IMG/VR virus record: IMGVR_UViG_3300021387_001477
DNA: 64,000 nucleotides
Origin: a virus
Taxonomy: Duplodnaviria > Heunggongvirae > Uroviricota > Caudoviricetes
Direction: 5' to 3' (one strand)
The stretch's first letter is position 1, and every line of letters begins with the position of its first letter. Positions 1,401 to 20,650 of this stretch are shown here, in pieces. The notes below the pieces were generated by a model. That model ran no database searches and had not been told where the DNA came from. It was given only the letters and a program-made list of their open reading frames with translations. Position numbers and translations under genes: made by a program.

Positions 1401-1712
1401 GTGAAAACAGAACAATCAAAAAACACAAAAACTATGACAGAAGAAAGTCAAAAGAAACAGAAAAGGGTTAAGATCAAGAAGATCGCCCTTACAGTTCTGA
1501 TTGCTGCTGCCGCTGTGGAGGTTGGTAGACTTTCAGCTAGCAAGGAAGAAAGAGAAAAACTCCTTGGTGTTGGAAAAAAGATTGTCAACTCTGTGAAAGG
1601 AATTTTCACTAAGAAGACAGTTTCTGCCGTCGAACAGCACAGCAACAATGCAAACAAAAATCGTAACCCCCAGTATAACGGTGGTTACAGAAAACCCAGG
1701 TTTAACAACTAA
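1401..1712 (+). CDS. small single-pass membrane protein (ATG 1434 is an alternative start)
   Basis: KKIALTVLIAAAAVEVG hydrophobic segment; promoter motif 1391-1401. Confidence 0.75.
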   Translation: MKTEQSKNTKTMTEESQKKQKRVKIKKIALTVLIAAAAVEVGRLSASKEEREKLLGVGKKIVNSVKGIFTKKTVSAVEQHSNNANKNRNPQYNGGYRKPRFNN

Positions 1713-1727
1713 AGGAAGGAAAAGAGT

Positions 1728-1904
1728 ATGAAAAAGATTTTAGGAAGTCTTGCTCTCGTAGCAACTGGTGTGGTACTCAAAGCAGTATCCGACAAGTATG
1801 GCGTAACCGGCGTAGTAGTCGCCAAAGCCAAGAAATGTGTTGCCTCCGCGCAGGAATATCTTCAGAACCTTGTAAAGGCTGAGGAAGAGCCTGCCGCTGA
1901 ATAA
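1728..1904 (+). CDS. small hydrophobic protein, 58 aa (below ORF-track cutoff)
   Basis: Manual translation MKKILGSLALVATGVVLKAVSDKYGVTGVVVAKAKKCVASAQEYLQNLVKAEEEPAAE, ATG 1728, TAA 1902-1904. Confidence 0.75.
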   Translation: MKKILGSLALVATGVVLKAVSDKYGVTGVVVAKAKKCVASAQEYLQNLVKAEEEPAAE

Positions 1905-1989
1905 AGGCAGTGAAGAAAAATAGCTCAATTCTCTTCATTAATTAACCTGGATGAGGGGTAGTGTCTAAAACTCATTACCCCTCTTTTAT

Positions 1990-2128
1990 AGTTTTCTAGG
2001 TTGTGAGTTTAATAGTTTTTGTTGTTTTATAAAGGGAAGGGGAAGGAAAATTTAAAACTCCTTCCCTAACCCAATAAGATGAAGCAGCATCTATAAAAAG
2101 CACATTAAGCTGCTTGCGTTAGAAAACT
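1990..2128 (+). ncRNA. pistol self-cleaving ribozyme, circularly permuted
   Basis: P1 AGAUG/CAUCU 2077-2092 with loop AAGCAG; linker AUAAAAAG; P2 CACA 2101-2104; UUAAG; pseudoknot CUGCUU 2110-2115; GCG 2116-2118; P3 UUAGAAAACU 2119-2128 pairs with upstream AGUUUUCUAG 1990-1999, then GU 2000-2001 and UGUG 2002-2005 completing P2. Confidence 0.85.
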
Positions 2129-2149
2129 TAAAAACCTTAATTATGAGAC

Positions 2150-2332
2150 ATGAAATTAACAACAAAAACAGATATGAAAGAAAAACAAAAAAAGTGGCTG
2201 TATATCGTTGGAAACGGTTGCGGCCGTGGTGCAGTAGCTTGCACCGTTGGGGCGATTGTGCTTTTTTGTCTCGGCACGATCGTAGAAATTACTAGAGACG
2301 TTGTATTAAGAAACGAAAATAAAAGAAAATGA
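2150..2332 (+). CDS. small membrane protein
   Basis: 60 aa, Gly/Ala/Val-rich TM segment; promoter motif 2135-2145. Confidence 0.7.
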   Translation: MKLTTKTDMKEKQKKWLYIVGNGCGRGAVACTVGAIVLFCLGTIVEITRDVVLRNENKRK

Positions 2333-2544
2333 TGAAAGAAGGCGATATAAGAACCTTTGACCGTGCTGTACGGGACGCTGGGGATAAACTGAATTTCCCC
2401 AATACGAAAGGTTTTATAACTAACGTCGGGGGAAAAGTTGCGGCCGGCCTGAGTATTGTCGTTATTGGCGGTATTCTGGTGGTTAAATGTTTAGACTTTT
2501 TCTTCCCGAGGAGACAAGGGAAAACAGATATCGGAAGACGATAA
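2329..2544 (+). CDS. small membrane protein
   Basis: 71 aa, VAAGLSIVVIGGILVV; ATGA overlap with upstream gene. Confidence 0.7.
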   Translation: MMKEGDIRTFDRAVRDAGDKLNFPNTKGFITNVGGKVAAGLSIVVIGGILVVKCLDFFFPRRQGKTDIGRR

Positions 2545-2568
2545 TAAGTTTTACAATTAATAGGAGTT

Positions 2569-3531
2569 TTGAGCGAAATGAAAACTTTTGAAAAAATTCT
2601 GATTGCCGTAGGTACTTTAGCTTTGGGCTATATACTCTATAAAAAAGGCAAAAAAGAACTTGAGGGGCTTGAAAAACAAGAACAAGCCTCAAACGACGAA
2701 CTTATCAACCTTGGCGTGAATCCGGAAAAATTAAGAAAGGAAATCATGCCTGAGGACGACAAGAAACTTGTAAAATCCCTTTATGTTGCTACTGCCTTCA
2801 ATAGTGAGTTTGACAAGGATATTATTAATCCTGCAAAATCTACTAGTAGCTATAATGTAGTTCACGTTAGGGAATCTTCTGACACGAAGGGTAAGAGGCA
2901 ATTTCTCGATATCTTAATTGAGATACCCGATTACACTGGAGAAAGATCTAATTTCGCTCCAAGAATCGCTGATTACATGAGATGTCTTAAGGAGGGGTCG
3001 GATTATATTTGGAGCAGACTTGTTGTGTTTGCTAATGATCCCCGTCCCAAGTTAGAGGGATATCTTTTGATATCATATGTATACAACAAGAAAGAACATT
3101 TTGAGCTACTTAAGATTCCAGAGAGTGTTTATGGAATTTTTAAAGATGGAAAGCATGACGGACTGAGTAAATTCTTTGAGGAGTTCGTTAACGGGAGATT
3201 TACCCCTGAAATGGAAAAAGCCCTGCATAAGTGGATTTATGAAGATGAGGGATTCGATGGGAGCACAGATGTTGCTCCACGCGATATCTATCTCATGTAT
3301 AGAATCTCTTATCCGATTAGAACAGGGGACCATCTGACGGGAATTGATCTTCCTCGGGCACTAAAGGCCTTAAAATATTTGGCTACCGAATTTGAGGTAA
3401 CTAGAGTAGAGGACAAAGATCCAGTCTATTATGATCACCTCCTATTCCATCACTCTGAGAATATGCTCGATTACTATACTGTCAATGAAAAAGGCGAAGT
3501 AGTAGTGAAAGACATAAAGTTCAGTGAATAA
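2569..3531 (+). CDS. N-terminally membrane-anchored hypothetical protein
   Basis: 320 aa, ILIAVGTLALGYILY followed by KKGKK; ATG 2578 is a likely start. Confidence 0.8.
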   Translation: MSEMKTFEKILIAVGTLALGYILYKKGKKELEGLEKQEQASNDELINLGVNPEKLRKEIMPEDDKKLVKSLYVATAFNSEFDKDIINPAKSTSSYNVVHVRESSDTKGKRQFLDILIEIPDYTGERSNFAPRIADYMRCLKEGSDYIWSRLVVFANDPRPKLEGYLLISYVYNKKEHFELLKIPESVYGIFKDGKHDGLSKFFEEFVNGRFTPEMEKALHKWIYEDEGFDGSTDVAPRDIYLMYRISYPIRTGDHLTGIDLPRALKALKYLATEFEVTRVEDKDPVYYDHLLFHHSENMLDYYTVNEKGEVVVKDIKFSE

Positions 3532-19036: not shown

Positions 19037-19059
19037 AATGGTTTAATGAAGGGAAGGGA

Positions 19060-19299
19060 TTAGACGGTTTCAGGCTTAGGAACAAATTTGCCGTTCTTTT
19101 TGTAGCAGATGTACTCCTTTCCGTTTTTAATGAATACAACCTTCTTTATCTCATCCTTCTTAGCGTTGTTTGCTTCTTCCTTGTTATCAGAAGCATTTTC
19201 GTTGTTTTCGCTGTTCCTAACCTCAAAAAAGGCCGCGACAGCAATGGCAATAACCAGTAATCCGGCTCCGATGCCAACTTTTTCTACTACATTTTTCAT
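19060..19299 (-). CDS. small membrane-anchored protein
   Basis: VGIGAGLLVIAIAVAAFF. Confidence 0.75.
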   Translation of the reverse strand: MKNVVEKVGIGAGLLVIAIAVAAFFEVRNSENNENASDNKEEANNAKKDEIKKVVFIKNGKEYICYKKNGKFVPKPETV

Positions 19300-19365
19300 A
19301 ACTTTTTACTTTAACTTTTCATCGCCTCTTTACGGGCTTTTGTAGTTTAGTGTCGACGCTGGGAC

Positions 19366-19509
19366 TCAAGACTCTTCATCTCTCCCAGCAATGGTTCTTA
19401 GATCCTCCTTATTTTCTTTAATAAACTGAGAAATTGCATCGAATAATCCTTCAGCTATGCCAAAGATTAGTACATCTATAAGTAATAGTTTAACTAGGCT
19501 GCACCTCAT
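19366..19509 (-). CDS. small hydrophobic protein, 47 aa (below cutoff)
   Basis: Manual translation MRCSLVKLLLIDVLIFGIAEGLFDAISQFIKENKEDLRTIAGRDEES; overlaps upstream stop. Confidence 0.6.
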   Translation of the reverse strand: MRCSLVKLLLIDVLIFGIAEGLFDAISQFIKENKEDLRTIAGRDEES

Positions 19510-19732
19510 AACCTTTTTCCTCCACAACTGTTTTAAATCTCTTTATTATATTCTCTGCGGTATTCTCTTTGTCTGTATCTTCAGGATGATCTTTAAAATA
19601 TCCGTTTTCGGCATCTGTATAAATATAATGCCAAATTTCTTTCAGGATGTCATATACCAGACTTCCTGCTGCTTGCCCCATCAATGTTCCCAATAGGTGT
19701 AATAGGGCATCTGTAAAACTTTTTAAAAACAT
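19490..19732 (-). CDS. small protein with amphipathic N-terminus
   Basis: 80 aa, LLHLLGTLMGQAAGSLVY. Confidence 0.7.
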   Translation of the reverse strand: MFLKSFTDALLHLLGTLMGQAAGSLVYDILKEIWHYIYTDAENGYFKDHPEDTDKENTAENIIKRFKTVVEEKGYEVQPS

Positions 19733-19765
19733 CTCTTGTTAATATTTTCTCGAAAGAGAAGAATT

Positions 19766-20008
19766 TTAAATTTTCTTCTCCCAAAATGATTTAGATATGT
19801 CGGATGCGCCTTGCCGGCATGCAGAAAGATCATTTCTAAATTTCTTGATGTCCTTTATTTTTCCAGACTTTTCAATATAATTTATATCTTCCTCATCCAA
19901 CTCCAAAGACATAGACACCACCTGCATTCCAAGTGATGTATTTTCACTATCAAGCTCAAACTTATTGTAAAGCTCGATATACTTTTCTAGATCTTTTTTG
20001 TTTATCAT
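19766..20008 (-). CDS. hypothetical protein
   Basis: 80 aa. Confidence 0.7.
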   Translation of the reverse strand: MINKKDLEKYIELYNKFELDSENTSLGMQVVSMSLELDEEDINYIEKSGKIKDIKKFRNDLSACRQGASDISKSFWEKKI

Positions 20009-20049
20009 AATATAATAGTTATTGTCTCTTTTAATAGTTTGTTTTGTTT

Positions 20050-20650
20050 ACCCAGAACTTCTCTTTCCAGGATTTTTGAAGTAAAATCATATCTTTTGTT
20101 CAGTACTCTTCGTCTTACTTATATGTTTTATGATAAGAGAGGTCTGTATACTTCTCTCAAATTACTTCCGACGTCTAAGTTCTCATAATATCATACAGGA
20201 TATTATGATTCCCTAGTTCACGGTGTACATCCGCTACCGCCCTTGTATATCTCTATAATTATTTTTCTTCAAAATAATATCAATATACTGGTTCCAAATT
20301 CTTTTCGAATTCAGAAAATTTATATAATTTGTTACACACGACCGGGCTTAAATAGATACCCAGCCATATGTTTGTCTCTAAAACCATTTTTCCGCTCCCT
20401 AGCCTATACTTATGCACCTTATGTATTCGGTCGGAACTAACAACAATTCCGAATAGGCATTACCCTAGCATAAGCCTGAGACATTTTAACCTCGCCGGGA
20501 CGAGGGTGAGTGGGGACTCTCACATTTCATTATATAAGCTCGCTCTCAGCACCTTCACTATGCTTATATAACTAAGTATAATAATATTATACGCCCCAAA
20601 ATAAAATCAAGAAAACTAGACTATTAAATCTAATTTCCTTGAGGTATTTT
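20050..20650 (-). ncRNA. candidate large structured ncRNA
   Basis: Starts after minus-strand promoter motif 20655-20665; no credible ORF; 10 or more helices including perfect 10-bp stems 20530-20571 and 20183-20208; G-U pairs favour the minus strand. Confidence 0.6.

What the first reader, a model, noticed from the sequence alone, without database searches (positions are those of the whole stretch)
1401..20650. System-level hypothesis: ribozyme-punctuated operons of small single-pass membrane proteins
Seen: both ribozymes lie inside clusters of 47-140 aa genes carrying one Gly/Ala/Val-rich hydrophobic helix, often with flanking Lys runs (1401-3531 plus strand; 18446-19732 minus strand). The second cluster lies downstream of the 600-nt structured RNA. 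A third member (50504) lies downstream of the tRNA-like RNA, and others occur at 7175, 43773, 44012 and 53654. Inference: a family of phage membrane effectors (superinfection exclusion or envelope takeover) whose mRNAs are matured by self-cleaving and structured RNAs, which could set stoichiometry or stability through 5'-OH ends. A shared function is not demonstrated.
Basis: inference. Interest (0 to 1): 0.75.

Follow-up and report, generated by a model that had tools for sequence, protein, structure and literature searches.

The report
Ribozyme-cut operons of small membrane genes
A 317-kb gut/rumen phage has two self-cutting RNA motifs between small membrane-protein genes; the hammerhead sits at the same junction in six diverged relatives, so it is a conserved part of that operon, but its effect on those genes is untested.

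Summary
A complete type III hammerhead lies at 18793-18843 (-). A pistol core at 2077-2128 (+) has its cleavage strand upstream at 1990-2005, a permuted order. Both sit between small ORFs that carry a hydrophobic helix.

The hammerhead is real by comparison. I recovered the same operon in six lineages of this jumbo-phage family, with proteins down to about 25-30% identity. Each has one type III hammerhead: invariant core, GUH triplet, and 11 of 16 pairs with compensatory changes (0 of 500 shuffles).

The operon order is conserved: promoter word, a ~650-nt structured RNA with no Rfam family, 3-7 small mostly membrane ORFs, a hairpin, the hammerhead, then a membrane plus coiled-coil protein, a B116-like protein and a 430-490-aa protein. 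The ORF before the hammerhead is a small membrane protein in 6 of 6 lineages.

The wider claim is only partly supported. The small membrane proteins are not one sequence family. The pistol occurs only in this phage and its ~95% relatives; the orthologous cluster in a distant relative has a structured spacer there but no pistol core.

Ribozymes flanking phage gene blocks were described in 2011. No RNA-end data could be obtained.

A sequence look-up found no look-alike of this operon's 108-aa protein on other DNA in this scan.

The parts
1279..1288 (+). Promoter-like word CTTATATATG ahead of cluster 1
   Evidence: The word is enriched in the window: 43 sites with up to 1 mismatch against 10.8 expected. 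The same word precedes the structured RNA in all six lineages. Promoter function is inferred.
1401..1712 (+). 103-aa ORF with one hydrophobic helix (cluster 1, gene 1)
   Evidence: The orthologue in G002:C18 (r76) matches at E 1.6e-10.
1728..1904 (+). 58-aa ORF with an N-terminal hydrophobic helix (cluster 1, gene 2)
   Evidence: A 62-aa ORF holds the same position in G002:C18.
1951..1989 (+). 11-bp hairpin followed by a U-rich run, directly before the pistol cut
   Evidence: z -5.0. The tool's terminator scan did not list this hairpin; its 9-nt loop (my reading of the fold) is above the scan's 8-nt limit.
1990..2005 (+). Pistol right-hand strand: P3 right (1990-1999), scissile G2000/U2001, P2 right (2002-2005)
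   Evidence: the only match with P3 of 7 bp or more in the window; 5 weaker hits in 2000 shuffles. Identical in L013 and L014. Thermodynamic folding also predicts the P3 pairing.
2034..2073 (+). Insert hairpin that joins the natural 3' and 5' ends of the pistol
   Evidence: Its loop is inverted in L013, so it is a tolerated variable part.
2077..2128 (+). Pistol core: P1, A-rich linker, P2 left, UUAAG, pseudoknot strand, GCG, P3 left
   Evidence: It matches the consensus described in PMC4604425. Self-cleavage was not tested.
2150..2332 (+). 60-aa membrane ORF (cluster 1, gene 3)
2329..2544 (+). 71-aa membrane ORF (cluster 1, gene 4)
   Evidence: The identical protein occurs on 9 public contigs.
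2569..3531 (+). 320-aa protein with an N-terminal membrane anchor (cluster 1, last gene)
   Evidence: The orthologue in G002:C18 matches at E 4e-40.
20655..20664 (-). Promoter-like word CTTATATATG at the head of operon 2
   Evidence: It is conserved in all six lineages (first alignment columns).
20006..20654 (-). About 650-nt conserved structured RNA with no Rfam family; leader of operon 2
   Evidence: Fold z -8.0. nhmmer E 2e-39 to 3.5e-26 in independent lineages. 104 consensus pairs, 67 with a compensatory change. No Rfam match.
19766..20008 (-). 80-aa soluble ORF, first gene of operon 2
19490..19732 (-). 80-aa ORF with a Gly/Ala-rich amphipathic helix; a similar ORF occurs at the same place in L054, L023 and L061
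   Evidence: The shared G.A.GS.VY(D/E) motif was read by eye.
19366..19509 (-). 47-aa hydrophobic ORF that overlaps the previous stop
19060..19299 (-). 79-aa membrane ORF
18854..19018 (-). 54-aa membrane ORF directly 5' of the hammerhead
   Evidence: A small membrane ORF holds this place in 6 of 6 lineages.
18843..18871 (-). Hairpin GAGGAGA/UCUCCUC that spans the stop codon and ends at the hammerhead
   Evidence: A strong hairpin precedes the hammerhead in all six lineages (z -3.0 to -6.3).
18793..18843 (-). Type III hammerhead; predicted cut between 18837 and 18836
18446..18715 (-). 89-aa protein with an N-terminal membrane helix and a coiled coil; first gene after the hammerhead
   Evidence: Weak Rz-like spanin matches for the L061 (3e-5) and L023 (0.084) orthologues only.
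18123..18449 (-). 108-aa protein; the Atlas model resembles the STIV B116-like fold
   Evidence: 36 representative clusters; TM 0.76 and 0.74.
16824..18110 (-). 428-aa protein of no known family, last conserved gene of the operon
50504..51061 (-).
   Evidence: The tRNA-like score is just under threshold and processing was not tested.

Best explanation
The window holds two separate small-gene operons of a jumbo gut/rumen phage, each interrupted at one gene junction by a self-cleaving ribozyme motif.

Operon 2 (20664 to 16824, minus strand) is an old, conserved module. Its order is: promoter word, a ~650-nt structured leader RNA, several small mostly membrane ORFs, a strong hairpin with a U-rich tail, a type III hammerhead, 75-94 nt of leader, then a membrane plus coiled-coil protein, a B116-like protein and a 430-490-aa protein.

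Most likely the hammerhead cuts read-through transcripts a few bases after the hairpin. The upstream RNA (structured leader plus small membrane ORFs) would then end in a hairpin-protected 2',3'-cyclic phosphate end. The downstream mRNA would start with a 5'-OH and the folded ribozyme stems. The two halves would then decay and be translated independently while still being driven from one promoter.

The permuted pistol in operon 1 has the same layout (small membrane ORF, hairpin plus U run, cut site, ribozyme, next small membrane ORF). It probably does the same job, but it is a recent, lineage-specific addition.

Shown: the motifs, the conservation, the covariation and the synteny. Inferred: cleavage in vivo, the nature of the ends, and any effect on stability or dosage. 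The link to membrane proteins belongs to these two operons. It is not a rule, and the proteins are not one family.
For: Hammerhead:
- The core is complete.
- Six lineages each have one copy at the equivalent junction.
- 99.1% of cells are paired; 11 of 16 pairs show changes on both sides; the covariation score is 0.735 against 0.288 in shuffles, with 0 of 500 reaching it. Sliding the partner strand collapses the pairing.
- N7 varies U/A and the triplet is GUU, GUC or GUA, as the family allows.
- Only one hammerhead occurs in the 376-kb relative genome.
- The region is 100% identical in relatives that differ by about 5% overall.

Module:
- Flanking proteins are weakly but collinearly homologous.
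- The leader RNA is homologous and covarying.
- A hairpin precedes all seven cut sites.
- The spacing from the hammerhead to the next start codon is 75-94 nt (for L054 from the called gene start and the hammerhead end).

Pistol:
- The core and the unique upstream strand are present.
- The layout agrees with the published consensus and with active two-strand constructs split in P3.

Prior proposal of polycistronic processing in phages: PMC3088659 and PMC6765202.
Against: - No RNA data: no read ends, no cleavage assay.
- Both motifs score well below Rfam gathering thresholds.
- The pistol rests on three near-identical sequences, so there is no covariation for it. Its topology is unreported as far as my paper search shows.
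- The distant relative keeps cluster 1 without a recognisable ribozyme, so cutting is not needed for that cluster.
- In L059 the hammerhead precedes a 404-aa non-membrane gene.
- The hairpins are not called as terminators by the simple scan.
- The six hammerhead copies descend from one ancestral module. They show retention, not repeated independent association with membrane genes.
Confidence: 0.6

Rival explanations
1. Coincidence of niche. Small self-cleaving ribozymes and small membrane ORFs both collect in fast-evolving accessory operons of phages. They end up as neighbours without any functional coupling to membrane proteins as such.
For: - The small membrane proteins are unrelated in sequence.
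- They make up about a third of all ORFs of 160 aa or fewer in the window (14 of 43).
- The pistol is absent from the orthologous cluster in G002:C18 and from the L007 variant.
- Perreault et al. 2011 found that genes flanked by prophage hammerheads 'are not constant'.
- In L059 the gene after the hammerhead is a 404-aa soluble protein.
Against: - The hammerhead stays directly after a small membrane ORF in 6 of 6 lineages while the proteins diverged to 25-30% identity.
- Both ribozymes fall in the roughly 6 of 92 junctions flanked by small membrane ORFs on both sides.
Confidence: 0.2
2. The small proteins are one functional class of membrane effectors (exclusion or envelope takeover). The ribozymes, the 650-nt RNA and the tRNA-like RNA form a common maturation system that sets the dosage of these proteins through 5'-OH ends.
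For: - Three different RNA elements (pistol, hammerhead, tRNA-like) each lie just upstream of a small membrane ORF in one phage.
- The leaders at 1944-2002 and 50855-50919 share a ~60-nt hairpin element found nowhere else in the window.
- The 650-nt RNA and the hammerhead are conserved together with the small-ORF block.
Against: - There is no sequence family and no functional annotation.
- The pistol and the shared hairpin are lineage-specific.
- The tRNA-like element is below threshold and ARAGORN does not call it.
- The conserved genes after the hammerhead include a B116-like fold and a large soluble protein, not only membrane proteins.
Confidence: 0.1
3. Operon 2 is a lysis-type cassette. 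The 1-3-helix small proteins are holin or antiholin-like, and the membrane plus coiled-coil protein is an i-spanin. The hammerhead separates their expression to time lysis.
For: - The L061 orthologue of the 89-aa protein matches PHROG 739 'Rz-like spanin' at 3e-5 over 84 residues and PHROG 89 at 0.02. The L023 orthologue scores 0.084.
- The small ORFs have 1-3 predicted membrane helices.
Against: - The window's own 89-aa protein has no such match.
- Coiled-coil matches are often compositional; the same protein also gives many weak Pfam coiled-coil hits.
- No endolysin or lipoprotein o-spanin was seen in the module.
- The next gene has a B116-like (DNA-binding type) fold.
Confidence: 0.1

Closest known systems
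Hammerhead ribozymes flanking genes or short gene blocks in prophages (Perreault et al. 2011, PMC3088659)
   Same: Self-cleaving motifs lie at gene junctions of phage polycistronic units. The proposed role is to cut long transcripts into operon- or gene-length mRNAs. Cleavage was shown there in vitro and, after cloning in E. coli, for the A. tumefaciens ribozymes.
   Different: In those cases several ribozymes cluster together and the flanked genes 'are not constant'. Here there is one ribozyme per operon, kept at the same junction across six diverged lineages. It is always preceded by a hairpin and a small membrane ORF, and it is coupled to a conserved 650-nt leader RNA. Nothing has been tested experimentally here.
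Type III hammerhead ribozyme (Rfam RF00008)
   Same: All core nucleotides, the G10.1-C11.1 and A15.1-U16.1 pairs, a GUH triplet, three helices with an open stem III, and covariation in all three helices.
   Different: The stems are short and AT-rich with short loops. It scores 17.9 bits against a gathering score of 48.5, so standard annotation misses it. No loop-loop contact was identified.
Pistol ribozyme (Rfam RF02679; Harris et al. 2015, PMC4604425)
   Same: P1 with a 6-nt loop forms a 6-bp pseudoknot with the P2-P3 junction. An A-rich linker, UUAAG, GCG, a 2-nt GU junction between P3 and P2, and a phage context are all present.
   Different: The strand order is permuted. The P3-right, GU and P2-right strand lies 70 nt upstream of P1, so the RNA is open in the P3 loop and closed by an insert hairpin between the usual ends. 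My search of the held papers found no report of a natural permuted pistol. There is no covariation and no assay.
glmS ribozyme and engineered ribozyme insulators of the RiboJ type (own knowledge; glmS also in PMC6765202)
   Same: Cleavage in an mRNA leader creates a 5'-OH end that changes the fate of the downstream message and uncouples it from upstream sequence.
   Different: No ligand dependence is indicated here. How the host's RNases treat 5'-OH ends is unknown for this uncultured phage-host pair.

Membership tests
Hammerhead ribozyme, type III | Conserved core: C3-U4-G5-A6-N7-G8-A9 and G12-A13-A14 | tested here: met
   CUGAUGA and GAAA in the window. Invariant in 7 sequences, with only N7 varying between U and A.
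Hammerhead ribozyme, type III | Cleavage triplet N-U-H, with U16.1 paired to A15.1 | tested here: met
   GUU, GUC or GUA. The U-A pair is invariant.
Hammerhead ribozyme, type III | Three helices around the core, stems I and II capped, stem III open, supported by covariation | tested here: met
   16 pairs, 99.1% of cells paired, 11 pairs with changes on both sides, 0 of 500 shuffles. G10.1-C11.1 is invariant.
Hammerhead ribozyme, type III | Reaches the Rfam RF00008 gathering score | tested here: not met
   17.9 bits against 48.5. No hit at all in larger searches. This is a scoring threshold, not a structural feature.
Hammerhead ribozyme, type III | Site-specific self-cleavage | not testable with these tools
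No assay was possible.
Pistol ribozyme | P1 hairpin whose loop forms a pseudoknot with the junction between the left strands of P2 and P3 | tested here: met
   AGAUG/CAUCU with loop AAGCAG, which pairs with CUGCUU over 6 bp. The feature is as described in PMC4604425.
Pistol ribozyme | P2 and P3 helices joined on the right side by a junction of exactly 2 nt (usually GU) that holds the scissile bond | tested here: met
   A 10-bp P3, G2000-U2001 and a 4-bp P2. These are formed with a strand that lies upstream.
Pistol ribozyme | Standard strand order: P1, then P2 left, then P3 hairpin, then P2 right | tested here: not met
   No P3 hairpin or P2 right strand lies downstream. The order is permuted. 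It should be filed as a pistol-like variant, not as a standard member.
Pistol ribozyme | Covariation supporting the helices | tested here: inconclusive
   Only three near-identical copies are available. The changes fall in the insert loop and at one linker base. No copy was found in G002:C18.
Pistol ribozyme | Reaches the Rfam RF02679 gathering score | tested here: not met
   18.8 bits against 34.5.
Rz-like i-spanin (for the 89-aa protein) | N-terminal membrane helix plus periplasmic coiled coil, with a profile match | tested here: inconclusive
   The architecture is met. PHROG 739 matches only the L061 orthologue at 3e-5 and the L023 orthologue at 0.084; the window copy has no match.
Rz-like i-spanin (for the 89-aa protein) | Partner o-spanin lipoprotein and a neighbouring endolysin | tested here: not met
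   The next genes are a B116-like fold protein and a protein of no known family. No lipobox ORF was seen by eye.
Ribozyme-flanked phage gene blocks (Perreault 2011) | Self-cleaving ribozymes at gene junctions of a co-oriented phage gene block | tested here: met
   Both motifs lie between co-oriented ORFs on the coding strand.

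The most novel reading that the evidence does not exclude
The promoter, the 650-nt structured RNA, the small membrane ORFs, the hairpin and the hammerhead form one conserved RNA-level control device of a jumbo-phage family. In it, ribozyme cutting just after a terminator-like hairpin sets the amount or timing of a block of small membrane proteins relative to the downstream genes. The phage in this window has independently recruited a second, topologically new (permuted) pistol ribozyme for the same task at another small-membrane-gene operon.
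Probability: 0.25. Interest if true: 0.75.

Novelty: new variant of a known kind. Interest (0 to 1): 0.55.

Why it matters
What small self-cleaving ribozymes do in bacteria and phages is still largely unknown; the 2019 review PMC6765202 calls their roles 'largely elusive'.

Here a hammerhead has been held at one defined gene junction while the neighbouring proteins diverged almost beyond recognition. That gives a clear, comparable test case: one cut site, a fixed upstream hairpin, fixed spacing to the next gene, and many natural variants.

The same operon carries a large covarying RNA that has no Rfam family. The second operon offers a pistol with a strand order that I did not find described.

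If the cut sets the ratio between small membrane proteins and downstream genes, it would be a simple, protein-free way for a phage to split one transcription unit.

Tried and rejected
- IMG/VR held no relatives of the 428-aa or 320-aa proteins. ClpP gave only a 44% relative.
- A conserved word of the 650-nt RNA gave only chance hits in IMG/VR.
- The two-block pattern found one short JGI contig and the L023 contig again.
- The word-index search with the 428-aa protein found one hit, on a contig that does not reach the hammerhead.
- Rfam at gathering level found nothing in the window or in 135 kb of relatives' loci.
- RF00008 found nothing in Lak phages or G001. My own model R2 also found nothing there.
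- Weak model hits at L001 7737-7779 (coding, no core) and G002:C5 (no core) are false positives.
- The lax pistol descriptor gives about 2 hits per shuffled window. Only the 2077 site has all features. The single hit in G002:C18 is weak.
- The relative's orthologous spacer matched no Rfam family, and I could not fit it to the pistol consensus by eye.
- A weak Pistol hit inside the 650-nt RNA lacks the pseudoknot partner.
- The ops/JUMPstart-like word in that RNA is not conserved in L023.
- The idea that the small proteins form one family was rejected by all-against-all BLASTP.
- The terminator scan does not flag the pre-ribozyme hairpins.
- L056 is cut before the expected hammerhead site.

Full report
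WHAT THE WINDOW IS. The window is part of a 317,399-bp metagenomic contig. Its G+C content is 35% and it carries phage genes: a ClpP-type protease, a DHH phosphoesterase, and a MoxR-type ATPase with a CobT-like partner. The ClpP is 43-47% identical to those of Lak megaphages. Near-identical DNA occurs in many sheep, bovine and other gut metagenomes. No whole genome is held for the window.

THE TWO RIBOZYME MOTIFS. Rfam reports nothing at its gathering scores. Reading the minus strand and running a hammerhead descriptor of my own (0 hits in 20 shuffles of the window) gives one complete type III hammerhead at 18793-18843. Rfam's Hammerhead_3 model aligns it end to end when given only 91 bases, but at 17.9 bits against a 48.5-bit threshold.

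On the plus strand, 2077-2128 carries the left half of a pistol ribozyme (18.8 bits against 34.5). It has P1, an A-rich linker, the P2 left strand, UUAAG, a 6-bp pseudoknot with the P1 loop, GCG and the P3 left strand. AGUUUUCUAG-GU-UGUG at 1990-2005 supplies a 10-bp P3, the strictly 2-nt junction and a 4-bp P2. It is the only such match of P3 7 bp or longer in the window; the one other match has a 6-bp P3. A laxer version (P3 of 6 bp or more) arose 5 times in 2000 shuffles of the upstream 300 nt. Plain energy folding also finds the P3 pairing. This fits the published description of the family and the fact that two-strand constructs split in P3 are active (PMC4604425). The strand order, however, is permuted, and I found no report of a natural permuted pistol.

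THE SMALL ORFS. Hydropathy and a codon-usage score trained on the long ORFs support the small ORFs on the stated strands. Of 43 ORFs of 160 aa or fewer, 14 have a strong hydrophobic helix. Nine of these lie in the two clusters. All-against-all BLASTP finds no real similarity between them. They share a build, not a family.

THE HAMMERHEAD OPERON IS CONSERVED. The ATPase at 10644-11795 has many relatives on 300-400-kb contigs.
- Close relatives (L013 and L014, about 95% nucleotide identity overall) keep the hammerhead and its downstream leader 100% identical.
- A distant relative (L023, ATPase 61% identical) has a type III hammerhead of different sequence at the equivalent junction. It is the same contig as G002:C18, a 376-kb contig filed as a 'Bacilli' MAG.
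- The flanking proteins there are collinear and weakly homologous: E 9e-5, 1e-7 and 0.002 at 27-33% identity.
- A profile of the 108-aa protein found 36 representative clusters.

Every lineage whose context I could fetch and that reached the site has one type III hammerhead: L054, L057/58, L059/60 and L061/62.

A structure-guided alignment of the seven distinct sequences shows:
- 99.1% of cells paired;
- 11 of 16 pairs with changes on both sides;
- a covariation score of 0.735 against 0.288 in shuffles (0 of 500), with collapse when the partner strand is slid.

The core is invariant, N7 is U or A, and the triplet is GUU, GUC or GUA. The whole 376-kb relative genome contains only this one hammerhead. 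A model built from the seven finds none in two Lak-type genomes or in an IMG/VR relative.

MODULE ANATOMY. The order is: the word CTTATATATG, a ~650-nt non-coding stretch, 3-7 small ORFs, the hammerhead, and then (in 5 of 6 lineages) a 89-113-aa protein with an N-terminal membrane helix and a coiled coil, the 106-116-aa protein, and a 428-494-aa protein.
- The ORF directly 5' of the hammerhead is a 50-68-aa protein with one or two membrane helices in 6 of 6 lineages.
- In L059 a 404-aa gene lies between the hammerhead and the rest.
- A strong hairpin, mostly followed by a U-rich run, ends a few bases before each cut site. The pistol site has the same feature.
- The hammerhead ends 75-94 nt before the next start codon.

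The non-coding stretch is a homologous RNA in all six lineages, with nhmmer E-values of 2e-39 to 3.5e-26 for sequences not used to build the profile. Its consensus fold has 104 pairs, 67 of them with a compensatory change. It matches no Rfam family.

The Atlas model of the 108-aa protein resembles the STIV B116-like fold. One orthologue of the membrane plus coiled-coil protein weakly matches Rz-like spanins. The other module proteins searched have no family match beyond weak, sub-threshold hits.

THE PISTOL OPERON. The 320-aa and 103-aa proteins have orthologues in G002:C18, at E 4e-40 and 1.6e-10. They lie in the same order, with three small hydrophobic ORFs between them and a 233-nt structured spacer at the junction that holds the pistol in the window. 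That spacer has a terminator-like hairpin and a long closing helix. It has no pistol core by my descriptor, no Rfam match, and none that I could fit by eye.

The pistol is therefore specific to the window's lineage. Its three known copies differ only in the insert-hairpin loop, which is inverted in L013, and at one linker base. One public contig (L007) is 99.5% identical from 2175 onward but unrelated upstream.

READING. Its central inference is right for the hammerhead: the ribozyme is a fixed part of an operon rich in small membrane ORFs and headed by a large structured RNA. The evidence does not support one family of effectors or one maturation system that spans both clusters and the tRNA-like unit.

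The best mechanistic reading is intercistronic processing just after a hairpin. This would give the upstream RNA a protected 3' end and the downstream mRNA a 5'-OH, structured 5' end. Such processing has been proposed for prophage hammerheads since 2011 (PMC3088659; PMC6765202), where the flanked genes were said not to be constant.

What is new here is the long-term retention of one hammerhead at one junction, its coupling to a hairpin and to an undescribed large RNA, and a pistol-like motif with a permuted strand order. All functional steps remain inferred, because no RNA-end data could be obtained.

Noticed in passing
window 20006-20654 (-); L054 2594-3265; L023 18409-19074 (-); L059 1296-2022; L057 2513-3211: A ~650-nt RNA is conserved across six phage lineages. 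It has 67 compensatory pairs and a long-range closing helix, and it matches no Rfam family. It looks like an undescribed large structured RNA class of jumbo gut phages.
   Followed up: partly
window 20231-20248 (-): The word GGGCGGUAGCG inside the large RNA matches the ops/JUMPstart element (RF01707, 17.8 bits, E 0.46). It is not conserved in L023 and is probably chance.
   Followed up: partly
window 1944-2002 (+) and 50855-50919 (-): A ~60-nt hairpin element (GGGGUAG..CCCC..UUUAUA..UCUAGG inside an outer helix) occurs exactly twice in the window. One copy is before the pistol cut and one is in the leader of the 85-aa membrane ORF. It is absent from G002:C18.
   Followed up: partly
window 50450-51061 (-): A one-gene unit: promoter word, tRNA-like RNA with a 19-nt insert in the anticodon loop (28.5 bits against 29; ARAGORN negative), a 190-nt leader, the 85-aa membrane ORF, and a strong terminator.
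   Followed up: partly
L007 1-645 compared with window 2175: A JGI contig is 99.5% identical to the window from 2175 onward but carries an unrelated, opposite-strand gene upstream. This is either a recombination joint or an assembly chimera, right beside the pistol.
   Followed up: no
L013 (equivalent of window 2047-2059): The loop of the pistol's insert hairpin is the exact reverse complement of the window's loop, a hairpin-loop inversion between close relatives.
   Followed up: no
window 18738-18747 (-), 50828-50837 (-); L054 and L023 leaders: The word UUUCAAGA(C/U)A lies about 20-70 nt before the start codons of the gene after the hammerhead (in three lineages) and of the 50504 ORF. Two hits in the window are not significant on their own.
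   Followed up: partly
window 43773-44012 and 44012-44275 (+): Two adjacent ORFs of 79 and 87 aa both have a C-terminal membrane anchor followed by Lys/Arg. They are probably tail-anchored paralogues.
   Followed up: no
window-wide, e.g. 1279, 15352, 20655, 28582, 35404, 48564, 51052: The word CTTATATATG (usually CCTTATATATGTAAT) occurs 43 times with up to 1 mismatch against 10.8 expected, mostly just upstream of genes. It is conserved in distant relatives and is probably the phage's own promoter.
   Followed up: partly
G002 (GCA_017940265.1), contig C18: A 376-kb contig filed under a 'Bacilli bacterium' MAG from water-deer omasum is a jumbo phage genome of this family. This looks like a binning artefact.
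   Followed up: partly
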